Below, piece by piece: positions 8,256 through 54,146 of a stretch of 60,141 bases of DNA. Each line of letters opens with the position of its first letter. Within the stretch, counting starts at the first letter, position 1. The DNA is taken from positions 1-60,141 of IMG/VR virus record IMGVR_UViG_3300033076_000334, one strand, 5' to 3'. This DNA comes from a virus (lineage: Duplodnaviria > Caudoviricetes). The position numbers and the translations under genes were made by a program. The notes under the pieces are model-generated. The model was not told where the DNA came from, did no database searches, and was given only the letters and a program-made list of their open reading frames with translations.

Positions 8256-9043
8256 GTTTTAAAAAAGACAAACGCCCCGAATTAAAGGTAGTACAACCAC
8301 CACAAGTTAAGTTATTTGTAGCTACACCAATGTATGGTGGTATGTGCTCAGGCATGTATACATCAGGCATCATGCAATTAGTTGGTACATGTGGACAAAA
8401 CGGCATACAGATGTACTACTCGTTTATGATGAACGAATCGTTAATTACTCGTGCCCGTAACAGTATGGCTTATGACTTCTTGGAGTCGGATGCTACGCAC
8501 ATGATGTTTATTGATGCTGACATTAGCTTTAACCCTAGCGACATACCCAAAATGGTAGCGGCTAATGTAGACATTATTTGTGGTCTATACCCCAAGAAAG
8601 AAATTAACTGGGTAGAAGTTGCTGAAGCCGTTAAGCGTGGCGTGCCCCCGCAAGACTTAGCCAAGCATACTGGTGCGTTTGTAGTAAACCTGCCTCATGG
8701 TACAGAAACAGCGCAAGGTAAAGTTGATGAGCCTATGGAGATTGCCAATGGTGGTACAGGGTTTATGCTAATTAAGCGTGAAGTATTTGAGAAGCTAGCC
8801 CCAACCGTACCAAGCTATACCAACGATATGTACCATGCAGTAGATACTGTACGTAAGATTAAGATTATCAAAGAGTTCTTTGCTACTAGTATTGATGAGG
8901 AAAGCAACCGCTTGTTATCTGAGGACTACCACTTCTGCAAGATTGCTCGTGAGGCGGGGTTCAAGGTATATGCTGCTCCTTGGGCTAGCTTTGGACATAT
9001 GGGTAGCTATACATTTAGCGGGCAATTACCTAGGTCAGCATAA
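8252..9043 (+). CDS. GT-A fold glycosyltransferase-like protein
   Basis: VATPMYGG, ESLITRARN, MFIDADI (DxD), GTGFMLIKR, SEDY.FC, H.G. Confidence 0.82.
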   Translation: MSFKKDKRPELKVVQPPQVKLFVATPMYGGMCSGMYTSGIMQLVGTCGQNGIQMYYSFMMNESLITRARNSMAYDFLESDATHMMFIDADISFNPSDIPKMVAANVDIICGLYPKKEINWVEVAEAVKRGVPPQDLAKHTGAFVVNLPHGTETAQGKVDEPMEIANGGTGFMLIKREVFEKLAPTVPSYTNDMYHAVDTVRKIKIIKEFFATSIDEESNRLLSEDYHFCKIAREAGFKVYAAPWASFGHMGSYTFSGQLPRSA

Positions 9044-9456
9044 TGCGTAAACCCTTTGAGCAAGAACTACACGACCTTTACGATGCACCAGCTAAGGAGG
9101 CGGTAGCCGCCTTCATAGAAAAGAAATGTGGTGTAACAGTTGAGCCTAACCCCGACAAGTACGGGGTAGATTTATTGGTAATAAAGGATGATAAGGTAGT
9201 TGGCAGTATCGAGGTAGAAGTACGCCAATGGCATCCATGCCCCTACCCAACCATTCATATTCCCGAAAGGAAGCGTAAGTTCTTCTCAGAGAACTCGCTG
9301 TTTTTTGCATTAACTAAGACGATGACTCACGCCTACTGGATACAGATGAAGGATATAGAACAGTATCCAGTAAAAGAAATAAGCAATTACAAAGTACGAG
9401 AGGGTGAGTTATTTTTCGATATACCAACGGAGAAATTTGTGTACGTGGAGTTATGA
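9043..9456 (+). CDS. PD-(D/E)XK-like nuclease fold protein
   Basis: YGVDLL...IEVEVR motif. Confidence 0.6.
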   Translation: MRKPFEQELHDLYDAPAKEAVAAFIEKKCGVTVEPNPDKYGVDLLVIKDDKVVGSIEVEVRQWHPCPYPTIHIPERKRKFFSENSLFFALTKTMTHAYWIQMKDIEQYPVKEISNYKVREGELFFDIPTEKFVYVEL

Positions 9457-9770
9457 TGAACAAAATATATGAATGGAACGAACCCATAAATCTATGGAGT
9501 GGTGCTCTTATACGGGACTACCTTATTTGGGTAAGAGAAGCCTACGGCATGAAGGAAGCTAAGAAGCTATTTAAGTACGCTAAGCAGTATCGTGCAATTA
9601 AAGACCTTAATGCTAGTGCGAAACAAGAAATGAACCAGTCAATCACAGATATGCTGGCGCACTCAATGATGCACACTAAAGAAGTTATGGCGGCTAACTT
9701 ATTAAAGAACCATTTTGAGGATTACATAAATGAGCAGACAACCGAAAACAATACGGCAGAAAATAATTAA
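9453..9770 (+). CDS. Hypothetical protein with a major-capsid-like C-terminal helix
   Basis: TDMLAHSMMHTKEVMAANLLKNHF aligns ungapped to capsid TKALARAMAYTKQVKAAAVLNNGF. Confidence 0.75.
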   Translation: MMNKIYEWNEPINLWSGALIRDYLIWVREAYGMKEAKKLFKYAKQYRAIKDLNASAKQEMNQSITDMLAHSMMHTKEVMAANLLKNHFEDYINEQTTENNTAENN

Positions 9771-10026
9771 ATACCCGCTAAAGAAGTGGCCTTCTAGAAT
9801 CAGGGAGAAGTACTATAAGTGGGTCAAGGAAACCTATGGTGATGTGCCTAACCCTGAGAGTTATGTGGATGGGTATCGTGCATGGAAACAACTAGTGTGG
9901 AGTACGCAACCAATATATAGGGAACCGACCCAACTTATAACCTCTACTGGTATGGTAGCGATGGCGCAAAAGATACTAAACCAGTCAATTAAAGACGCAT
10001 ATGAAGATATTAACAATAGACTTTGA
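9730..10026 (+). CDS. Hypothetical protein, N-terminally paralogous to 9453..9770
   Basis: Shared P...W......Y..WV.E.YG motif; RBS GAGG. Confidence 0.7.
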   Translation: MSRQPKTIRQKIIKYPLKKWPSRIREKYYKWVKETYGDVPNPESYVDGYRAWKQLVWSTQPIYREPTQLITSTGMVAMAQKILNQSIKDAYEDINNRL

Positions 10027-11821
10027 AACTTACTACGATAGGCAGTTTAGCTTGTCAAAAATTACAACCGAGGAGTACGTTCGCTCACCACAATTTGAAG
10101 TTATTGGTGTAGCAGTAAAGGAAAATGATGAGAAAACAACGTGGTTTACTGGAGACTATGCTGGAGTTAGCAGTTTTTTGGCTAATTATGACTGGGCTAA
10201 TTCTGCTGTGCTTGCTCACAATGCTATGTTTGATGCCGCTATACTTACTTGGATATATGGGATTAAACCGAAAGCATGGCTGGATACCCTTAGCATGGCG
10301 AGAGCGCTTCATGGCTCAGAAGTGGGTAATAGTCTTGCGAAGCTGGTTCAACACTATGAACTAGGTCAGAAGGGTACAGAGGTAGTAGATGCCTTGGGTA
10401 TGCGCCGAGAGTCATTTGGCAAAGCGCAACTCGATGCGTACGGTAGCTACTGTATCAATGACGTGGACTTGACCTATGCTTTGTTTGGCAAGCTAGCCCC
10501 GAGCTTCAACCTCTCTGAGCTTCAGCTCATATCCTTAACTATAAAGATGTTTTCAGAACCAGTACTAGAGCTGGATCGCAAAATGTTGTTGGAGCATCTT
10601 GAGGGTGTGAAGAAACGTAAAGCAGATTTGTTAGAACAGGCTGGTGTAGAAACCCGTGATGACCTCATGAGTAACCAAAAGTTTGCTGAGATGTTACGTA
10701 GCCTGGGCGTTGAACCACCTACCAAAATATCTTTGACTACGGGGAAAGAAACTCTGGCTCTGGCTAAGTCCGATGAGGAGTTCAAAGCATTGGCTGAGCA
10801 TCCTGACGATAGAGTCCAAGCACTCGTGGCTGCACGTTTAGGTAACAAGTCAACCCTAGAGGAAACCCGTACAGAGCGTTTCTTAGGTATCGCTAGTCGT
10901 GGCAAGATGCCAGTACCCTTGCAGTATTACGCCGCACATACTGGGCGTTGGGGTGGTGCAGACAAACTAAACCTACAAAACTTACCAGCTAGGGGCGCTA
11001 ATGCTGGCAAACTAAAGAACGCTATCCGTGCCCCTAAAGGCTATGTACTGATTGACTCAGACTCCTCACAGATTGAGGCTCGCATGCTGGCTTGGTTATC
11101 AGGTCAGGATGACTTAGTAGAAGCGTTTGCGAAAGGTGAAGATGTATACAAAATCATGGCGTCGGCTATATATGCAAAGGATGAATCAGAAATTACGAAA
11201 GAGGAAAGGTTCGTGGGCAAAACCACAATTCTTGGGGCTGGCTACGGCATGGGCGCTAAGAAATTCGGGGCGCAACTCAAGACTTTCGGGATGGAGATTG
11301 AGGAAGGGGAAGCCATTCGTATCATCAATGTATACCGACAAACATATCCGAGTATTACTGGGTTATGGACTCAAGGACGACATACAGTAGAAGCAATGGC
11401 TAAGAATCAGAACACACCATTCGGTAACGGGTGCGTTGAGGTTCATGGTGACTTAGGGATACTCCTACCTAATGGGTTGTATCAAAGATACCCAAACTTG
11501 CGTAAAATAAAATCTGCTGATGGCGACCAATATGTCTATGATTCTAGACGTGGTGCTGTTAAAATATACGGAGGGAAGTTGGTAGAGAACATTTGCCAAG
11601 CCCTTGCTCGGTGTATTATCGGCGAACAGATGTTAAGAATTGCTAAAAAGTATAGACCCGTCTTAACGGTTCATGATGCGGTGGCTTGTATTGCACCTGA
11701 GGAAGAAGTAGAAGAAGCCGTTGCATACGTTGAAGAATGTATGAAATGGACACCCGACTGGGCGGCTGGCTTACCAGTTAGCTGTGAGGCTGGGTATGGT
11801 AAAACTTATGGAGATTGCTAA
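10001..11821 (+). CDS. polA: DNA polymerase family A with 3'-5' exonuclease
   Basis: IDFET, AHNAMFD, YCINDV exonuclease motifs; HTGRW, NLQN, DSSQIEAR (A), RFVGKTTILGAGYG (B), TVHDAV (C). Confidence 0.95.
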   Translation: MKILTIDFETYYDRQFSLSKITTEEYVRSPQFEVIGVAVKENDEKTTWFTGDYAGVSSFLANYDWANSAVLAHNAMFDAAILTWIYGIKPKAWLDTLSMARALHGSEVGNSLAKLVQHYELGQKGTEVVDALGMRRESFGKAQLDAYGSYCINDVDLTYALFGKLAPSFNLSELQLISLTIKMFSEPVLELDRKMLLEHLEGVKKRKADLLEQAGVETRDDLMSNQKFAEMLRSLGVEPPTKISLTTGKETLALAKSDEEFKALAEHPDDRVQALVAARLGNKSTLEETRTERFLGIASRGKMPVPLQYYAAHTGRWGGADKLNLQNLPARGANAGKLKNAIRAPKGYVLIDSDSSQIEARMLAWLSGQDDLVEAFAKGEDVYKIMASAIYAKDESEITKEERFVGKTTILGAGYGMGAKKFGAQLKTFGMEIEEGEAIRIINVYRQTYPSITGLWTQGRHTVEAMAKNQNTPFGNGCVEVHGDLGILLPNGLYQRYPNLRKIKSADGDQYVYDSRRGAVKIYGGKLVENICQALARCIIGEQMLRIAKKYRPVLTVHDAVACIAPEEEVEEAVAYVEECMKWTPDWAAGLPVSCEAGYGKTYGDC

Positions 11822-13186: not shown

Positions 13187-14737
13187 GTGGAGATCATCGA
13201 AAATAAAGCATTACTGCTTAAAGTAAACGACCCCGATAGGATAACTAACGTTATCCCTAAGTCTAAGCTAATGGCATCGCATGGGAACTATCACGAAGTT
13301 CTTGTGCATTGGGGCTTGGAGGAGGCGCAAGTTCTAAGAAACTTAAAAATTAAAAATGTACCATCCCCAATTAAAGGGCAATACGTTTGGCCTGGTCAGT
13401 ATAAACCCTTTGACCATCAGCAAGAAACCGCCGCCTTTTTAACCATGCACAAACGTGCATTTGTATTTAATGAGCAAGGCACGGGCAAGACCGCTAGTGT
13501 GATATGGGCTATGGACTACTTAATGAAGCTGGGTATGGTTAAACGTGCCCTAGTTATCTGCCCTCTTTCTATTATGGACTCGGCATGGCGTGCAGACCTA
13601 TTTACATTTGCCATCCACCGTACAGTTGATATTGCGTATGGTAGCCGAGAAAAACGTAAGAAGATTATTGATAGCGATGCCGAAGTAATTATTATCAACT
13701 ACGATGGTATTGAGATTGTGGCTGATGAGATTGAAAAGGGTGGCTTTGACATGATTGTGATTGATGAAGCCAATGCTTACAAAAACCCTACGACTAATCG
13801 TTGGAAAGTTCTTAATTCGTTAATCAAACCACATACTTGGTTATGGATGATGACAGGTACTCCTGCGGCTCAGTCGCCAGTTGATGCGTACGGTATTGCT
13901 AAGCTAGTCAACCCATCGGGTGTACCTAAGTTCTACTCGCACTTTAGAGACATGGTGATGCAGAAGATTTCCATGTTTAAGTGGATACCTAAACCCAACT
14001 CGGAAGACATAGTACACAACGTCCTTCAACCAGCTATACGATACACAAAGGAGCAATGCTTGGACTTACCTGAGATAACCTACCAAACACGAGAAGTACC
14101 ACTTACAGCACAGCAAGAGAAGTATTACGAAAGACTACGTAACGATATGCTAGTACGTGCGGCTGGTGAGGAGATTACTACCATCAATGCGGCGGCTAAC
14201 TTAAACAAGCTATTGCAGTTGTCTTGTGGCGCAGTTTATTCTGATACGGGTGAGGTTATCCAGTTCGATGCCAGCAACCGCTTGCGGGTACTAAAAGAAG
14301 CTATTGACGAGTCTAGCCATAAAGTACTAGTGTTTGTACCGTTTAAGCATGCCATTGACATTATCTATGAGAGCCTTACCAAAGATGGGTATACGGCAGA
14401 CATCATAAGTGGCGAAGTTTCTGTAAACAAACGTACAGAAATATTTAAGAAGTTCCAAGAAACACCTAACCCTCGTGTGCTGATTATCCAGCCACAGGCG
14501 GCTAGCCATGGCGTTACCCTTCATGCGGCAAATACGATTATATGGTGGGGTCCCATAACGTCATATGAAACTTACGCACAGGCTAATGCACGGGTACACC
14601 GAAGTGGGCAAAAGAACCCATGTACTGTAATTAGGTTGCGTGGAAGCAACGTTGAGAAACGCTTATATGAGGCACTCCAAAACAAACAAGATGTCCAACA
14701 CAATATTATGGCGTTATACGGGGAACTACTTAGTTGA
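13187..14737 (+). CDS. SNF2-family (SF2) helicase; GTG start after GGAG inferred
   Basis: EQGTGKT Walker A, IVIDEA, MTGTP, HGVTL, QANARVHRSGQ. Confidence 0.92.
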   Translation: MEIIENKALLLKVNDPDRITNVIPKSKLMASHGNYHEVLVHWGLEEAQVLRNLKIKNVPSPIKGQYVWPGQYKPFDHQQETAAFLTMHKRAFVFNEQGTGKTASVIWAMDYLMKLGMVKRALVICPLSIMDSAWRADLFTFAIHRTVDIAYGSREKRKKIIDSDAEVIIINYDGIEIVADEIEKGGFDMIVIDEANAYKNPTTNRWKVLNSLIKPHTWLWMMTGTPAAQSPVDAYGIAKLVNPSGVPKFYSHFRDMVMQKISMFKWIPKPNSEDIVHNVLQPAIRYTKEQCLDLPEITYQTREVPLTAQQEKYYERLRNDMLVRAAGEEITTINAAANLNKLLQLSCGAVYSDTGEVIQFDASNRLRVLKEAIDESSHKVLVFVPFKHAIDIIYESLTKDGYTADIISGEVSVNKRTEIFKKFQETPNPRVLIIQPQAASHGVTLHAANTIIWWGPITSYETYAQANARVHRSGQKNPCTVIRLRGSNVEKRLYEALQNKQDVQHNIMALYGELLS

Positions 14738-14793: not shown

Positions 14794-15099
14794 ATGGAAG
14801 TTAAATTAGATACAAACCTTGGATACGGTAGTGAGTTGCTATGCCCAAATTGTGGATGTAACAACCTACACCAAGTAGCCGTCGACGTTTATTTTAGGCG
14901 TGAAGATGCAACACATAGCATGCACACATACGTAGACATTAGCAATACTACTACTGATATGGAAACGGGGGATAATCCTAGCCTTAGACGTAGTGGGCTA
15001 TATATTACGTTTGAGTGTGAGCAATGCCCAGTAGAGTCAAAGCTAAACATTTTGCAACATAAAGGTACTACTTACCTACAATGGAGCGAACATGAGTGA
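14794..15099 (+). CDS. Hypothetical zinc-binding protein
   Basis: CPNCG..NLH and CEQC motifs; strong RBS. Confidence 0.72.
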   Translation: MEVKLDTNLGYGSELLCPNCGCNNLHQVAVDVYFRREDATHSMHTYVDISNTTTDMETGDNPSLRRSGLYITFECEQCPVESKLNILQHKGTTYLQWSEHE

Positions 15100-50332: not shown

Positions 50333-50821
50333 ATGAAATTTACAGTAAAAAAAGTCGACATCAGAATACCGTCTGTTCAAACCATACTAACTTTTCTACA
50401 AAAGAAAATCCTGCCGGAGGATATTCCGTACAAGACCGACCGGGGTCATTGGTGGGTTGCATATGCAGAGGATGGAAAGCCTGTCGGCTTTGCGGGTTTG
50501 GTCCGCTCGACACGGTGGAGCGATACAGGTTATTTTTGTAGAGCAGGTGTACTAGATAACTTTACTGGGCACGGATTACAAAAACGCCTTATCAAAGCTA
50601 GACTGTCTCAAGCTAAACGCCTTGGTTGGAATTGGTGTATCACAGATACAACAGATAACCCCGCTTCTTCTAATTCTTTGATCGCTTGTGGCTTCAAGTT
50701 ATATACTCCAGCAAATCCGTGGTCGTTTAAAAATGCGTTGTACTGGAAATATAAGGTAAACCAAGATGCCGTACAAAGATCCGAGCGTAAGAAAAAGAAA
50801 ACACAAAGAGTACAGCCGTAA
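50333..50821 (+). CDS. GNAT family N-acetyltransferase
   Basis: PVGFAG, RAGV...TGHGLQKRLI (motif A), N.AS...L..CGF. Confidence 0.88.
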   Translation: MKFTVKKVDIRIPSVQTILTFLQKKILPEDIPYKTDRGHWWVAYAEDGKPVGFAGLVRSTRWSDTGYFCRAGVLDNFTGHGLQKRLIKARLSQAKRLGWNWCITDTTDNPASSNSLIACGFKLYTPANPWSFKNALYWKYKVNQDAVQRSERKKKKTQRVQP

Positions 50822-51140
50822 GCATTATTTAGCTAACAAAGAAAAACAGATACTAGCTAATTCAGAATACAAGAAAAAACGACGCAAAGAATGGGCAGAA
50901 TTTAAAGACACCCTTGAGTGCACAAAATGTGGTTTTGCACATCCAGCGGCGTTGGATTTTCACCACACAGACCCCACACAAAAAGACGGTAATATTCACC
51001 GCTATATAGCAAACGGGCAATACAAAAAAGCCTATAAAGAAGTAGAAAAGTGCATAGTTCTATGTGCTAATTGCCACAGAATCCACCACTACGAAGAAAA
51101 GAAAAAGCCACCCGAAGGTGGCTTCAAACCGTTGGTTTGA
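50766..51140 (+). CDS. HNH endonuclease
   Basis: CTKCG, LDFHH, KC.VLCANCHRIHH. Confidence 0.88.
   Translation: MPYKDPSVRKRKHKEYSRKHYLANKEKQILANSEYKKKRRKEWAEFKDTLECTKCGFAHPAALDFHHTDPTQKDGNIHRYIANGQYKKAYKEVEKCIVLCANCHRIHHYEEKKKPPEGGFKPLV
51095..51125 (-). terminator. Intrinsic terminator after the major capsid gene
   Basis: Minus strand GCCACC-TTCG-GGTGGC-TTTTTCTTTT. Confidence 0.88.
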
Positions 51141-51144
51141 GGTA

Positions 51145-52053
51145 TTAGGCTCCAGCGGAACCGTACATACCGAGAGGATCAGACCAGCCGAAAGAATAAC
51201 GCTCACGAGACTTGTAACGAACGTTACCAGTATCGAAGTCACCGTCCATGCTGTTGCTCAAAGGAGTACGAACAAAGTGCTTCATACCGTTTGGAACGTC
51301 AGTGGTGAGGAACCAAGCATTGGTGTCGGTCAAGAAGTGGTTAACTGTGTAACCTTCAGAGACTGAACCGTTGTTCTTGATAGCGTTGATGTCGTTGTCG
51401 TTTGTACCAACACGCAATTCAGTTTCGAGCAAGCGAGTTGCAACGAACTGGAGTGCAGGAGGAACAACCAACTTCTTAGGTTTAGCAGCGATCAATAAGC
51501 CACGTTCGTCTGTCCAACCAGCGATTTGAATAACGGCAGCTTCCAAAGAAGTTTCGTTCAAATCAGCAGCTGTAGTAGGAATGTTGCTGTTGGTGCCACC
51601 AGAAACCAATGGGTGTGATGCAGAGAACAAAGGTTGACCGTCACCACCGTTGTAACCGGAAGTGAAGCCGTTGTTCAATACAGCAGCAGCCTTAACTTGC
51701 TTGGTGTATGCCATAGCACGAGCCAAAGCCTTGGTGTAGCGAGCTGACAAAGAATCGTAGAGGTTGTCTTCGATTGCTTCTTCAGTCAAGCTGAAACCCA
51801 AAGCGATTGTTTCGTGGTTGTAGCGAGCTGTCCATGCCTCTTGAGCATTGTCGTAAGCGATGGCAGAGCCTTCGTTCTTGACTGGAGCAGCGCTGAAACC
51901 AGAAAGTTTGGTTTCTTCTTCGAAAGAACGCTCAGAAGTTTCTGTTTCGTAGATCTCTTTATGCTCTTCGCCGTAGCGGGCATACTCAAGACCAAACAAG
52001 GCGTTCAAGCCAGGTAATAGCTCTTTTAGGAGCTGTGCACGAGAAATAGCCAT
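51145..52053 (-). CDS. Major capsid protein (HK97 fold, Mu gpT-like)
   Basis: MAISRAQLLKELLPGLNALFG, TEEAIEDNLY, DG..LFSASHP, L.VPP.L, RERYSFG.SD; biased codon use; terminator follows. Confidence 0.92.
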   Translation of the reverse strand: MAISRAQLLKELLPGLNALFGLEYARYGEEHKEIYETETSERSFEEETKLSGFSAAPVKNEGSAIAYDNAQEAWTARYNHETIALGFSLTEEAIEDNLYDSLSARYTKALARAMAYTKQVKAAAVLNNGFTSGYNGGDGQPLFSASHPLVSGGTNSNIPTTAADLNETSLEAAVIQIAGWTDERGLLIAAKPKKLVVPPALQFVATRLLETELRVGTNDNDINAIKNNGSVSEGYTVNHFLTDTNAWFLTTDVPNGMKHFVRTPLSNSMDGDFDTGNVRYKSRERYSFGWSDPLGMYGSAGA

Positions 52054-52065
52054 TTAATTAGCTCC

Positions 52066-52692
52066 TTATAAGTAGTCGTTGCCGGCAGCCAGCAAGACTT
52101 GAGGGTTATTGAACTTAACAACAACTTCTGTGAAAGCGTTGTTACCCGATGCTGTTTCTGGAACTACCTTAACAACACGAACTGGCAATGCAGCAGCATT
52201 ACCTGTACCGCTAGATGGGGCAGCAACTGAAACGCCAGAGTCACCAGTAATTGTAGAACCTGTGCCTTGGATCAAAGCAAGGTTAACACCAACTACAGAT
52301 GCGTTTGCGCTAGAAATTGTAGAGTTACCAGAGTAAGTAACAGCAACTTTGAACTCAGCAGCTGGGTCCATTACTACATAAGCGATAGCTGAAGTAGCTG
52401 CAGCATTACCTGGGTAATATTGAGCTTGAACAGTTTGGCCTTGTGTATTAACGTACTGAACACCCATAAACACGCCATAAGTAGCGTTGTTTGCTTTGTC
52501 AGTTGTTGAATCGCTGGTTACAGCAGACTTCTTGATTGTTCCACCATTGACTAGAACCACGTCGCCGTTGTAGATAGCAGTGTTATATGTAGATGCGATT
52601 GGGAGTTGCTGTGTCGCACCAGCATATGGCAAGCCATCAATGCGGTTGATTGGTTTTAGACCATAGGGAGCAGAAACGGTTGGATAAGCCAT
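52066..52692 (-). CDS. Capsid-associated (cement/decoration) protein
   Basis: APYGLKP, IYNGD.V, GVFMG..Y, V.DP; directly upstream of the capsid gene. Confidence 0.65.
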   Translation of the reverse strand: MAYPTVSAPYGLKPINRIDGLPYAGATQQLPIASTYNTAIYNGDVVLVNGGTIKKSAVTSDSTTDKANNATYGVFMGVQYVNTQGQTVQAQYYPGNAAATSAIAYVVMDPAAEFKVAVTYSGNSTISSANASVVGVNLALIQGTGSTITGDSGVSVAAPSSGTGNAAALPVRVVKVVPETASGNNAFTEVVVKFNNPQVLLAAGNDYL

Positions 52693-52716
52693 TTAAATCT
52701 CCTAAAATTAATAAAA

Positions 52717-53166
52717 TTAACTACCTTTACCAAAGCTAGTCGTGGATTTGCCTTCTTTAAAAATAGGCATCCGTGCGTCGCTCTGGCGCATTAAGTTATT
52801 TTCTACAGCCTCTGACTGAGACTCGCTTTGTTGAGCGTAATATTTGTTACGCTGTTCTACGAACTCAGTTGGAGTCTTGCAAAGCAATAACCCGCCGATC
52901 TCAATATTGTCTTTGTATCGACTATTAGGATCGACTAGCAGTTGAAATTGTGGTTGCTCTTCGATCTTTACTGGCTCCCAACCTTCACGCAATTTAGCGG
53001 AAAGATTACGAGGATCAGCTTGATTGTTAGTAGCAACACGGACCCAACGATAGGAAAAACCGGGCTGTTTGTCAGGTTCTGGCAATAGCTCAGGCTGTGT
53101 CCACTGCTTAGGACGCTCTGCCTGTACACGAGTTTCAATACTACGTGGTTTACGATTTTGTTCCAT
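52717..53166 (-). CDS. Conserved head-module protein
   Basis: LP.P, YRWVR, LREGWEPV, GGLLLCK.P, R..YY. Confidence 0.72.
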   Translation of the reverse strand: MEQNRKPRSIETRVQAERPKQWTQPELLPEPDKQPGFSYRWVRVATNNQADPRNLSAKLREGWEPVKIEEQPQFQLLVDPNSRYKDNIEIGGLLLCKTPTEFVEQRNKYYAQQSESQSEAVENNLMRQSDARMPIFKEGKSTTSFGKGS

Positions 53167-54146
53167 TATTGTGCTCCGTTCATTTGTTCAGCAACCTTTT
53201 TGGCGTATAGATCAAGGGGGACTCCCAACCGTTTGGCGATAGCTACTTGGGTCTTCGTCAACTTAATCTTCGATGGCGCAATACTGCGAGTCGCTGGTGC
53301 GACCACATTTGACGCCGGCTTAGCACGGCTTTGAGTTTCCTCTTCTGCCGGTTTTGTTTCTTCTACTTCGCTCCCGGTATCGAAATACTCGGGGTATCTT
53401 TTGCGCATTGTAGCATCAATTCGCTTGAAATAAGCATCGGATCCGATATAACTTTTTCCAAACTCTTTTTCGAGCTTCTTATGCAACCCAAGAGCCGTGG
53501 CGCTCATCTCATCGTCATCACCATACCAAGGGTTTGCATCTAGCCACTCGGCGGTTTTCGGATCAAGTTGAGGTTGTTGCTCTTCTTTTGGTAACTGTAC
53601 ATCAATTTCTTTAACTTGCAAAGGCTTTAATGAATCAGCTTTATCCATCTTTAGCGTTGCTTGCGAGATACGGAACTGAGCTTCTGCAATTAATTCTGCA
53701 TCGCCAGAGTCGTATGCTTCTTTAAAAGCACGCTTAGCTGCTTCAAGTTCATACTGTGCTGAGGTTTTACCTTGCTCAATATAGACCTTGCTGCCTTCTT
53801 CAAGTTGCTCTTGTAGCTTCTTGTTCTCCGCAAGGATTGACTCAGCTAACTTAATCGCTTCGTCCTTCTCACGCATAGCAGCTTCTTTAGCACGACGCTC
53901 ATCGTGGTATCCACGAGTAAACTTTTTGATGCGTTTTTGAACCTTAGCATCGTACTGGTTTAGCTCGTCATCATCTACTTCCTCAGGAGGTTCAGCAGCT
54001 TTAAAGCCTCTGTCCTTCTCGGGGGTATCATCCTCGATTTCAATCTCGGGTTCTGCTGCAGCCTGTACTTCTGGTTCTGCGGGTTTACCCTTAGGTTCTT
54101 CATCGGGGAATGTGTATTCTTCCAATTCCATGTTATTTTCTGCCAT
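53166..54146 (-). CDS. Capsid scaffolding protein
   Basis: Acidic coiled coil, W...NPWYG, C-terminal LT..QVAIAKRLGVP...YAK. Confidence 0.72.
   Translation of the reverse strand: MAENNMELEEYTFPDEEPKGKPAEPEVQAAAEPEIEIEDDTPEKDRGFKAAEPPEEVDDDELNQYDAKVQKRIKKFTRGYHDERRAKEAAMREKDEAIKLAESILAENKKLQEQLEEGSKVYIEQGKTSAQYELEAAKRAFKEAYDSGDAELIAEAQFRISQATLKMDKADSLKPLQVKEIDVQLPKEEQQPQLDPKTAEWLDANPWYGDDDEMSATALGLHKKLEKEFGKSYIGSDAYFKRIDATMRKRYPEYFDTGSEVEETKPAEEETQSRAKPASNVVAPATRSIAPSKIKLTKTQVAIAKRLGVPLDLYAKKVAEQMNGAQ

What the first reader, a model, noticed from the sequence alone, without database searches (positions are those of the whole stretch)
9453..9770. Early gene carries a copy of a major capsid protein helix: possible capsid mimic or decoy
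Seen: residues encoded at 9645-9716 (TDMLAHSMMHTKEVMAANLLKNHF) align without gaps to the phage's own capsid residues at 51735-51664 (TKALARAMAYTKQVKAAAVLNNGF). 12 of 24 are identical, and further positions are conservative. The rest of the 105-aa protein is unrelated to capsid, and the gene sits in the replication arm just before the polymerase. Established: several anti-phage systems are triggered by capsid proteins (CapRel SJ46; Lit by the T4 Gol peptide), and satellites redirect capsid assembly. Inference: the segment is probably the HK97 spine helix, grafted onto a small early protein. It could titrate a capsid-sensing defence, poison assembly of competing phages, or regulate assembly.
Basis: partly seen in the sequence, partly recalled or inferred. 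Interest (0 to 1): 0.82.

Follow-up and report, generated by a model that had tools for sequence, protein, structure and literature searches.

The report
Early phage protein displaying capsid peptide
A small early gene of an uncultured freshwater phage really does carry a selection-maintained copy of part of the capsid protein's central helix, sister genes carry the capsid protein's tail end instead, and this points to deliberate capsid mimicry whose target is still unknown.

Summary
ORF 9453-9770 (105 aa) matches the phage's HK97-fold capsid protein (MCP, 51145-52053) at 12 of 24 ungapped residues. As a single pair this is borderline: about 1.9 such pairs are expected by chance in the window's all-against-all comparison.

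Family profiles make it strong:
- hhalign of the ORF family against the MCP family gives E 5e-7, score 47 (best of 200 column shuffles: 20).
- An MCP-only HMM picks these small proteins as its best non-capsid hits.
- The matched MCP stretch lies in the predicted spine helix (residues 98-127).

Other evidence:
- A variant strain has 7 synonymous and 0 non-synonymous codon changes in the helix.
- Family members with the same 55-aa N-terminal domain carry the MCP's C-terminal motif instead, up to 13 of 14 residues identical with mostly different codons.
- A third carrier has the helix on another N-terminus.
- The genes sit in a swap-in/out slot before DNA polymerase A. They occur in 2 of 7 near-complete close relatives.

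"Grafted capsid helix" is supported. The function is untested. My favoured reading (about 0.4) is an early competitive mimic that blocks a host factor sensing capsid peptides. This scan has noted similar capsid-piece proteins on other phage DNA. Four literature searches found no description.

The parts
9453..9770 (+). Small early ORF (105 aa; databases start it at the second ATG, 9456, giving 104 aa). It has two parts: a conserved N-terminal domain and an MCP-like C-terminal helix.
   Evidence: ORF. GGAG lies shortly upstream, and the start overlaps the stop of the upstream gene. There are 12 homologues among 5.8 billion proteins and 10 clusters in 1.84 billion representatives, one of which (P0139) is a spurious repeat protein. 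No Pfam hit above cut-off, and no PHROG, PADLOC or NCBIfam hit.
9453..9626 (+). N-terminal domain (about 57 aa), a helical hairpin with invariant W14, W25, G31, Y45, R46 and A47. It is shared by all family members whatever their C-terminus.
   Evidence: Alignments A1 and A2. The AF2 model has helices 16-30 and 42-56 with block pLDDT of 88-93. No fold match.
9636..9728 (+). It is homologous to the C-terminal two-thirds of the HK97 spine helix.
   Evidence: hhalign aligns ORF 61-91 with MCP 104-134 at E 5.1e-7 (controls). 15 of 24 positions share the same consensus residue in both families. A variant haplotype has 7 synonymous and 0 non-synonymous codon changes here. AF2 predicts a helix at 63-102 with low pLDDT of 54-59, so it is not packed on the N-domain.
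9730..10026 (+). Tandem paralogue (98 aa) with the same N-domain and a degenerate 'type B' C-terminus. It overlaps both the ORF and the polymerase gene.
   Evidence: BLASTP E 1e-6. Family HMM E 3e-12. An orthologue lies at the same place in L183. It is absent in some strains (joint 9729->10001).
10001..11821 (+). DNA polymerase family A with 3'-5' exonuclease. It forms the right-hand border of the cassette slot.
   Evidence: Pfam DNA_pol_A 2.7e-38 and DNA_pol_A_exo1 9.6e-8. The position is conserved in L181, L183 and L002.
9043..9456 (+). Upstream gene (137 aa, weak PDDEXK_14-like match). It forms the left-hand border of the cassette slot.
   Evidence: Pfam 0.002, below cut-off. Contigs of other strains join 9439 directly to 10001.
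51145..52053 (-). Major capsid protein (302 aa, HK97 fold, Mu gpT / Phage_capsid_4 type).
   Evidence: More than 8000 relatives were scored at E<=1e-10.
51652..51744 (-). The part of the MCP spine helix (residues 104-134) that the small protein copies.
   Evidence: hhalign. AF2 helix at 98-127. The ORF-family HMM hits this stretch in the window (E 0.007) and in 11 of 19 other MCP-bearing records.
51157..51207 (-). MCP C-terminal motif (residues 283-299: the end of the last long strand plus the terminal strand). This is the model for the 'type C' tails of sister proteins in other phages.
   Evidence: P0138 and P0141 tails score SW 67 and 66 against this stretch, and 0 of 3000 shuffles reach it. 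AF2 strands at 278-290 and 296-299.

Best explanation
The ORF encodes a 'capsid-peptide display' protein. It has a folded N-terminal helical hairpin of about 55 aa. This carries a loosely attached C-terminal helix that descends from the spine helix of the HK97-type MCP family and is kept like it by selection.

It belongs to a small accessory family housed in a swap-in/out slot just upstream of DNA polymerase A. Members of the family exchange the C-terminal module. Most carry the spine-helix copy, some a degenerate version, and some a copy of the MCP's C-terminal strand and tail.

The genes are co-oriented with, and overlap, replication genes, so the protein is presumably made before the late capsid protein. 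My favoured mechanism is inferred, not shown. The displayed peptide acts as a competitive mimic. It occupies a factor that recognises these invariant MCP peptides, most likely a host capsid-sensing defence protein, before the real MCP appears, and so blunts that response.

Shown: homology, modularity, purifying selection, accessory and cassette behaviour. Inferred: early expression, binding, the identity of the partner, and the outcome.
For: 1. True MCP descent.
- hhalign of ORF family against MCP family gives E 5.1e-7 and score 47.4. The reversed control scores 13.3 and the best of 200 column shuffles scores 20.0.
- An MCP-only HMM was run against 1855 six-frame ORFs. Its best non-MCP hits are the L002 carrier (9.5e-7), this ORF (1.6e-4) and the L181 type C protein (9.8e-4). 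Noise starts at 0.2.
- The ORF-family HMM hits the MCP helix in the window and in 11 of 19 other MCP-bearing records. No other non-family place was listed, even at E<=10.

2. The residues conserved in the small proteins are those conserved in MCPs. 15 of 24 positions agree, including MCP-invariant L110 and A123 and near-invariant T117.

3. A second, independent MCP piece sits on the same N-domain.
- P0138 and P0141 tails score SW 67 and 66, with 0 of 3000 shuffles reaching that.
- The L181 tail shares 13 of 14 residues with an MCP clade, yet 10 of the 13 shared residues use different codons. This is selection on the peptide, not recent DNA transfer.
- P0141 is seen on 12 contigs and P0142 on 23.

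4. Selection. The X2/X3 haplotype has 7 synonymous and 0 non-synonymous codon changes in the helix, against 6:8 in the rest of the covered ORF (Fisher p 0.015).

5. Modularity.
- P0009 shares 19/56 residues in the N-domain but 27/27 in the module. P0011-13 share 44-45/57 and 6-7/23.
- The helix also sits on an unrelated N-terminus in L002.

6. Accessory and cassette behaviour, typical of counter-defence or exclusion genes.
- The family is present in 2 of 7 near-complete close relatives and in 0 of 5 genomes of a distant MCP clade.
- Other strains' contigs join 9439->10001 and 9729->10001.

7. The AF2 model leaves the helix unpacked (pLDDT 54-59), as expected of a tethered binding peptide.

8. 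Known biology. Capsid proteins are direct triggers of defence proteins such as CapRel SJ46 (passages read in PMC13728456). A phage protein can counteract a sensor of a structural protein, as DSAD1 does for DSR2 (abstract in the listing).
Against: - No defence system, host or binding partner is identified. The host is unknown.
- A faithful mimic might be expected to trigger rather than block a sensor.
- Many of the retained residues are small or hydrophobic (L, A, M, V, A, A, L, F). In the MCP these probably face the protein core, whereas three conserved basic MCP residues (K108, R112, K121) are not retained. That fits recognition of unfolded or nascent peptide, or packing, better than recognition of a folded capsid surface.
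- In G008 the type C tail matches its own MCP poorly (5 of 13 residues) and a roughly 50%-identical MCP clade well (10 of 13). A decoy tuned to its own capsid would not look like this.
- The window helix is no closer to its own MCP (12/24) than to other clades (up to 15/24).
- Only two genomes pair a family member with a known MCP, so co-variation cannot be tested.
Confidence: 0.4

Rival explanations
1. Assembly-pathway mimic. The copied P-domain elements bind the MCP itself or an assembly partner (scaffold, portal, protease). This would delay or steer the phage's own head assembly, target the small protein into proheads, or poison the capsids of co-infecting relatives or satellites, giving superinfection exclusion.
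For: - The two copied pieces are structural core elements of one domain: the spine helix at 98-127 and the last long strand at 278-290. By HK97 topology (recalled, not measured here) they lie next to each other, so each copy could complement the other element.
- The retained residues are those under structural constraint in MCPs.
- The G008 tail resembles a foreign MCP clade (10-13 residues of 13-14) more than its own MCP (5 of 13). That is what a weapon against rivals would look like.
- The MCP group is extremely abundant, with more than 8000 relatives, so co-infection is plausible.
- There is a precedent in SaPI1 CpmB. [quoted passage not shown]
Against: - A tethered 24-residue copy must compete with the MCP's own intramolecular helix, which has a large advantage in local concentration.
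- No sign of self-immunity was found. The window's own MCP helix is typical of the family.
- The gene sits among replication genes, not head genes.
- 5 of 7 near-complete close relatives assemble capsids without it, so it is not a core assembly factor.
Confidence: 0.25
2. A captured fragment with no mimicry. A piece of an MCP gene was once recombined into an early gene and is now kept for an unrelated job, such as a dimerisation or partner-binding helix for a replication-linked function. Alternatively it is a nearly neutral recombination scrap.
For: - The slot is a recombination hot spot (joints and loose ends at 9439/9453 and 10001), and the family is mosaic.
- The position next to DNA polymerase is conserved in three lineages.
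- The type B version has lost part of the motif through a 4-residue gap, yet it persists.
Against: - Two different MCP pieces sit on the same N-domain, and the same helix sits on a different carrier. This is hard to explain by accident.
- The residues kept are specifically the MCP-family invariants.
- The 7:0 synonymous pattern, and peptide identity retained with mostly different codons, show selection for this particular sequence rather than for just any helix.
Confidence: 0.2
3. Chance or convergent resemblance between two Ala/Leu/Lys-rich helices.
For: - The pairwise score alone is what an all-against-all scan of 84 proteins yields by chance. The pair ranks 63 of 3486, with about 1.9 expected.
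- BLASTP with composition correction does not report it.
Against: - The profile-profile score of 47.4 far exceeds the controls (maximum 20.0).
- Reciprocal HMM hits agree.
- A second MCP-derived motif occurs in the same family.
- The similarity grows when more diverged members are added: E 0.007 with A1 on the window, against 0.0012-0.008 with A2 on relatives.
Confidence: 0.03

Closest known systems
HK97-fold major capsid proteins of the Mu gpT / Phage_capsid_4 type (Pfam PF10124, PF25209), the source of the copied segments
   Same: The ORF's residues 62-92 are homologous to MCP residues 104-134 (spine helix). Sister proteins copy MCP residues 283-299.
   Different: The small proteins lack everything else of the fold: N-arm, E-loop, P-domain sheet and A-domain. 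They are 72-148 aa, sit among replication genes, and match no capsid Pfam model.
SaPI1 CpmB, which competes with the phage 80alpha scaffolding protein (Dearborn et al. 2017, PMC5644958; abstract and passages read)
   Same: A small helical protein uses the same interactions as a head-morphogenesis protein and so competes for that protein's binding site. Because the mimic copies an essential interaction, the victim cannot easily escape by mutation.
   Different: CpmB imitates the scaffold and is encoded by a satellite. Here the MCP itself is copied, and the gene lies in the phage's own replication module. Binding is not shown.
Gol peptide of T4 gp23 with the Lit protease and EF-Tu
   Same: A short internal MCP segment, rather than the assembled capsid, is the unit that a host defence recognises.
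   Different: Gol is part of the MCP itself and triggers defence. Here the segment is duplicated onto a separate early protein. No Lit-like system is known for this host.
CapRel SJ46 sensing of MCP (passages in PMC13728456) and DSR2/DSAD1 (abstract of PMC11087589 in the listing)
   Same: Defence proteins bind phage structural proteins directly, and a phage-encoded protein can counteract such a sensor.
   Different: Nothing I read describes DSAD1 as a copy of the tail tube protein. No sensor is identified here, and no homology to these proteins was found (PADLOC: no hit).
Earlier notes of this scan on other phage DNA (e1-6049013, e1-6244279, e1-5644278, e1-6045069 and others)
   Same: Small proteins encoded among early or replication genes carry pieces of the phage's capsid protein. 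Several are reported to be under selection.
   Different: Most of those are T4-like or giant phages with gp23-type capsids and other carriers. They are AI notes that I did not check. Here the phage is a 60-kb genome related to HTVC023P-type pelagiphages, with a defined carrier family and two interchangeable capsid modules.

Membership tests
HK97-fold major capsid protein (Pfam PF25209 Phage_capsid_4 / PF10124 Mu gpT) | Full-length match to the family model, about 260-300 aligned positions | tested here: not met
   Pfam finds no capsid family for the ORF at E<=0.1. hhalign aligns only 31 of 302 columns. The MCP HMM matches only positions 98-131.
HK97-fold major capsid protein (Pfam PF25209 / PF10124) | HK97 fold: N-arm, E-loop, P-domain sheet with spine helix, A-domain | tested here: not met
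   The AF2 model of the ORF is all-helical, with helices 16-30, 32-35, 42-56 and 63-102 and no strands. The window's MCP model shows the full fold.
HK97-fold major capsid protein (Pfam PF25209 / PF10124) | Spine-helix sequence signature (L110, T117, K118, A122-A123, L126, F130 in window MCP numbering) | tested here: met
   15 of 24 consensus positions are shared. hhalign E 5.1e-7.
Unnamed small-protein family (N-domain W-x6-W-x10-WV.E.YG ... YRA) | Conserved N-terminal domain of about 55 aa | tested here: met
   E values of 5e-49 to 5e-23 to 12 homologues. Invariant W14, W25, G31, Y45, R46, A47 in 17 sequences.
Unnamed small-protein family | Position in the replication module, at or near the 5' side of DNA polymerase A | tested here: met
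   Window, L181 and L183.
Scaffold-type competitive mimics (SaPI1 CpmB) | A segment copies the binding segment of a head-morphogenesis protein | tested here: met
   The C-terminal module is homologous to MCP segments. However, it copies the MCP, not the scaffold.
Scaffold-type competitive mimics (SaPI1 CpmB) | Binds the capsid protein and alters assembly | not testable with these tools
   This needs binding or assembly assays.
Scaffold-type competitive mimics (SaPI1 CpmB) | Encoded by a satellite that parasitises the phage | tested here: not met
   The gene lies inside the phage's own replication operon, on a 60-kb record that CheckV estimates to be 95% complete.
Known anti-phage defence proteins (PADLOC-DB) | Match to a model of the library | tested here: not met
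   0 families at E<=0.1 for the ORF, its paralogue, the L183 type C protein and the L002 carrier.
Decoy or antagonist of a capsid-sensing defence (functional class) | Binds the sensor in place of the MCP and prevents activation | not testable with these tools
   No sensor or host is known. This needs genetics or biochemistry.

The most novel reading that the evidence does not exclude
Phages of a very abundant freshwater and marine group keep an exchangeable cassette before their DNA polymerase. Its products display short, invariant peptides of the capsid protein (spine helix or C-terminal strand) on a common carrier domain. These act as early-made decoys that disarm host sensors of capsid peptides, or sabotage rival capsids. 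Together with the similar cases this scan noted in T4-like and giant phages, this would be a general and so far undescribed viral strategy: structural-protein peptide display.
Probability: 0.35. Interest if true: 0.9.

Novelty: categorically new. Interest (0 to 1): 0.8.

Why it matters
Capsid proteins are among the commonest triggers of bacterial immunity, and phages are thought to escape mainly by point mutation. A gene family whose only recognisable feature is a selection-maintained copy of invariant capsid peptides, made from an early operon and swapped like a cassette, would be a new kind of counter-measure or of inter-phage weapon.

It would also give a direct handle for finding the unknown factors that read capsid peptides. 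The copied segments (MCP 104-134 and 283-299) say which parts of the HK97 fold are being read.

Because the phage group is very abundant in natural waters (more than 8000 MCP relatives), the effect could matter ecologically. The hypothesis is directly testable with short constructs.

Tried and rejected
- Pairwise BLASTP of ORF against MCP did not report the helix match. It gave only a weak N-terminal match, ORF 6-18 to MCP 288-300, E 0.096. The MCP HMM does not support that second match, finding no second domain, so I treat it as unexplained.
- Phage GenBank collection: no DNA match and no tblastn match for the ORF.
- No family hit above cut-off for the ORF or its relatives in Pfam, and none in PHROGs, PADLOC or NCBIfam. 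PDB sequence search found nothing meaningful. Foldseek PDB gave no match at E<=0.001. In VIA-align wide, the top-ranked rows cover only the long helix and the highest Z is 5.5. ESM Atlas gave no usable hit for residues 1-60.
- Complex prediction with MCP alignment A4 and ORF alignment A2 returned 'no answer' (score 0.00, controls not run). This is no evidence either way.
- The look-up of sequencing runs listed no RNA holder. This is no evidence on expression.
- In read laying, parts of 9466-9509 had no cover in three runs. I read nothing into this.
- Both metagenome-contig scans found no confirmed relative. The viral-contig scan with A1 found only the two distant L001/L002 loci.
- I could not obtain model coordinates. 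The claimed 3D adjacency of MCP 107-130 and 283-290 therefore rests on recalled HK97 topology plus the secondary structure.
- dN/dS across homologues was not possible because their DNA could not be fetched. I used the variant table instead. It lists 40 of 66 variant places, and 40 of the 42 differences of the X2 contig.
- Row dropped: L145 was left out of alignment A4 because its MCP frame holds a stop.
- P0139 (2612 aa, repeat protein) was ignored as a spurious hit.
- Papers' supplements were not consulted.
- Literature searches for a published description of capsid-derived peptides on early proteins found none. The library is partial.
Full report
WHAT IS THERE. The window is a whole 60,141-bp virus record that CheckV estimates to be 95% complete. 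It has a rightward replication arm. This holds glycosyltransferases, DNA polymerase A at 10001-11821, a PD-(D/E)XK nuclease, an SNF2 helicase and a DUF927 primase-helicase. It also has a leftward structural arm with the terminase, an 821-aa probable portal protein and the MCP at 51145-52053. By its MCP it is related to Planktothrix phage Pag-Yong1 and Synechococcus phage MinM2 (72% identity), phage DSL-LC04, the HTVC023P-type pelagiphages (about 64%) and roseophages CRP-901/902 (listing).

The ORF 9453-9770 is real. A GGAG lies just upstream, and its start overlaps the stop of the preceding gene. It also overlaps a 98-aa ORF (9730-10026), which is its paralogue (BLASTP E 1e-6; family HMM 3e-12). 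That paralogue in turn overlaps the polymerase gene.

THE OBSERVATION. The 24-residue ungapped match is exactly as described, with 12 of 24 identical. As a single pair it is unusual: the SW score is 55, reached by 2 of 3000 and 4 of 3000 shuffles. The pair ranks 63rd of 3486 pairs of the window's 84 proteins, at a level where about 1.9 chance pairs are expected. It ranks first of 1104 small-early x structural pairs, where about 0.6 is expected. Composition-adjusted BLASTP does not list it. On pairwise evidence alone the finding could not be accepted.

FAMILY-LEVEL EVIDENCE. The ORF has 12 homologues among 5.8 billion clustered proteins. It has 10 clusters among 1.84 billion representatives, one of which (P0139, a repeat protein) is spurious. 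The MCP, by contrast, has more than 8000 relatives. I built alignments of the ORF family (A1 with 13 sequences, A2 with 17). I also built two MCP alignments: A3 with 14 sequences at 36-100% identity, and A4 with 41 sequences at 58-100%.

hhalign of A2 against A3 aligns ORF 61-91 with MCP 104-134, at probability 92.4%, E 5.1e-7 and score 47.4. Against A4 the score is 43.8. Against the reversed A3 it is 13.3. Against 200 column-shuffled A3 alignments the mean is 12.2, sd 2.0 and maximum 20.0.

The reciprocal test used an HMM built from MCPs only (A3), searched against all 1855 six-frame ORFs of the window and of loci L183, L181, L002 and L001. After the MCP itself it returns, in order:
- the L002/L001 148-aa protein (E 9.5e-7);
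- this ORF (1.6e-4);
- the L181 type C protein (9.8e-4);
- an L002 116-aa ORF (0.031);
- the L183 type C protein (0.13).

Noise starts at 0.2. A4 gives the same order.

The ORF-family HMM hits the MCP helix as the third-best place in the window's six frames (E 0.007). It also hits it in 11 of 19 other MCP-bearing virus records (E 0.0007-0.008). No other non-family place was listed, even at E<=10.

Column by column, 15 of 24 positions have the same consensus residue in both families. These include the MCP-invariant L110 and A123 and the near-invariant T117. The ORF agrees with the MCP family consensus (S113, N124, and E119 in distant clades) where the window's own MCP differs (A, A, Q). The helix is about equally similar to all MCP clades, at 8-15 of 24 identical, and its own MCP scores 12. 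So the copy is old and is not tuned to the phage's own capsid.

IS IT THE SPINE HELIX? The AF2 model of the MCP has mean pLDDT 77.8. It has one long helix at 98-127, followed later by long strands at 257-271 and 278-290 and a terminal strand at 296-299. Foldseek places it with HK97 and other HK97-fold capsids at E 1e-12 to 1e-9. The copied stretch is therefore the C-terminal two-thirds of the spine helix plus the turn after it.

A SECOND CAPSID PIECE ON THE SAME CARRIER. In A2 the N-terminal 55 residues are shared by all members, but the C-termini fall into types across 21 distinct sequences:
- type A, the helix copy: 13 sequences;
- type B, a degenerate form with a 4-residue gap that includes the window's paralogue: 6 sequences;
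- type C: 2 sequences (P0138, P0141).

Type C ends in a 15-17-residue tail that copies the MCP C-terminus. SW scores are 67 and 66 against the window MCP, and 0 of 3000 shuffles reach them (maxima 55 and 54). Identity reaches 12 of 15 with another MCP of the family. P0141 and its cluster mate P0142 are seen on 12 and 23 contigs of up to 71 kb, so this is not an assembly artefact.

In IMG/VR loci, the type C gene lies directly before DNA polymerase A in L181. In L183 it lies before an orthologue of the window's paralogue and then the polymerase. L183 belongs to G008, a 62-kb genome that is 94% complete and whose MCP is 87% identical to the window's.

The L181 tail shares 13 of 14 residues with the MCP C-terminus of a clade only about 50% identical to the window MCP (L190/L191). 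Yet 10 of the 13 shared residues use different codons. In the window, 8 of the 12 shared helix residues use different codons. So the likeness is held at the protein level and is not left over from recent DNA transfer. In G008 the tail fits its own MCP poorly, at 5 of 13 residues.

MODULARITY AND SELECTION. N-domain and module have separate histories. P0009 shares 19/56 N-domain residues with the window protein but 27/27 in the module. P0011-P0013 share 44-45/57 and 6-7/23. The same helix module also sits on an unrelated N-terminus in a 148-aa protein of another lineage, L002, again in the replication region upstream of a family A polymerase. There only positions 64-97 of the family HMM match, at E 9e-8.

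Contigs of other samples laid on 9400-10050 show a variant about 92% identical. Within 9645-9716 it has 7 changed codons, all synonymous. The rest of the covered ORF has 6 synonymous and 8 non-synonymous changes, which cluster in the linker (residues 53-60) and the C-terminal tail (99-105) (one-sided Fisher p 0.015). The same call shows contigs that join 9439 to 10001, with both small genes absent and 15 other letters between, and contigs that join 9729 to 10001, with the paralogue absent. Loose ends pile up at 9453 and 10001. These joints come from relatives laid at 80% likeness, which is what the claim is about: the stretch between the upstream gene and the polymerase is an exchangeable slot.

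The family is present in 2 of 7 near-complete genomes of the close MCP clade (G000 and G008, but not G001-G005). It is present in 0 of 5 complete genomes of the distant clade.

THE PROTEIN. AF2 (mean pLDDT 71.7) gives a confident helical hairpin at 16-30 and 42-56, with block pLDDT 88-93. It gives a long C-terminal helix at 63-102 with pLDDT 54-59, which is not packed against the hairpin. That is the look of a tethered peptide that folds on a partner. No family or fold could be assigned to the N-domain.

HOW IT MOST LIKELY WORKS. It is shown that short MCP segments have been copied onto small proteins of the replication module. They are kept like the MCP consensus by selection and are exchanged as modules in an accessory cassette. 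It follows by inference that the copied peptide, and not the carrier, is the working part, and that it works by being taken for the capsid protein.

The candidates for the party that is deceived are:
- (a) a host factor that recognises capsid peptides. Capsid proteins are direct triggers of CapRel-type proteins (passages in PMC13728456). Phage proteins that counteract a sensor of structural proteins exist (DSR2/DSAD1, abstract in the listing). The Gol/Lit case (recalled) shows that a short MCP peptide can be the recognised unit.
- (b) the assembly pathway itself, meaning MCP, scaffold or portal, whether the phage's own or a rival's. SaPI1 CpmB competing with the scaffold for its site on the capsid protein is the precedent (PMC5644958).

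I favour (a) at about 0.4. The genes behave like counter-defence genes: they are small, orphan, presumably early, present or absent among near-identical phages, and cassette-like. In addition, a tethered copy can hardly displace the MCP's own intramolecular helix.

Reading (b) stands at about 0.25. It is favoured by three things: the structural-core nature of the two copied elements, their probable adjacency in the P-domain (recalled topology, not measured), and the G008 tail resembling a foreign clade more than its own capsid. A captured fragment now serving an unrelated purpose remains possible (about 0.2). Chance is practically excluded (about 0.03).

COMPARISON AND NOVELTY. The protein is not a capsid protein. 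The tests for the full model and for the fold were not met, and only the helix signature is met. It is not in any library searched. In working principle the nearest described systems are CpmB, which imitates a morphogenetic protein's binding interactions, and the Gol peptide, where an MCP segment is the recognised unit. It differs from both: the phage copies its own capsid family's invariant peptides onto early proteins.

Four full-text searches found no description of such proteins. The library is partial, and supplements were not seen. This scan has noted comparable capsid-piece-bearing small early proteins in other phages, mostly T4-like or giant ones. Those are unchecked AI notes, but they suggest that the pattern is general. 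I therefore rate it as a new kind of feature with an unproven function.

Noticed in passing
L002:14701-15051 (IMG/VR contig, also in L001), directly upstream of an SNF2 helicase gene at 15039: A 116-aa ORF begins with an MCP C-terminus-like peptide. The MCP HMM A3 scores it at E 0.031, matching positions 281-298, while A4 gives only 1.3. By eye, 11 of 15 residues match the L190 MCP tail. The preceding 90-aa ORF (14439-14711) looks like a paralogue without that peptide. This would be a third carrier type, with the capsid piece at the N-terminus.
   Followed up: partly
window 9468-9506 vs 51154-51192: BLASTP finds a weak likeness between the ORF's conserved N-terminus (residues 6-18) and the MCP C-terminus (288-300), at E 0.096. 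The MCP HMM does not support it. It is unexplained and could be chance.
   Followed up: partly
window 9439-10001: The stretch between the upstream gene and the polymerase is a structural-variation hot spot in other samples. Contigs skip 561 bases or 271 bases, one replaces 290 bases by 43 others, and many loose ends fall at 9453 and 10001.
   Followed up: partly
window 51145-52053 and loci L100-L179: The MCP type is extremely common. More than 8000 relatives were scored at E<=1e-10, and one 90% cluster has 1904 member sequences. Phage contigs carrying it are binned into MAGs labelled as many unrelated phyla, including archaea, which looks like mis-binning rather than host range.
   Followed up: no
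window 50333-51140 (+ strand, inside the leftward structural arm): Two rightward genes sit between leftward structural genes just downstream of the MCP. By eye, the second (124 aa) has Cys/His motifs that look like an HNH endonuclease. Neither was searched.
   Followed up: no
window 52066-54146 (-): The three genes between the 821-aa probable portal gene and the MCP (326, 149 and 208 aa) have no Pfam family. Only the 326-aa one hits a PHROG of unknown function. The scaffold or protease of this head module is therefore unassigned.
   Followed up: no
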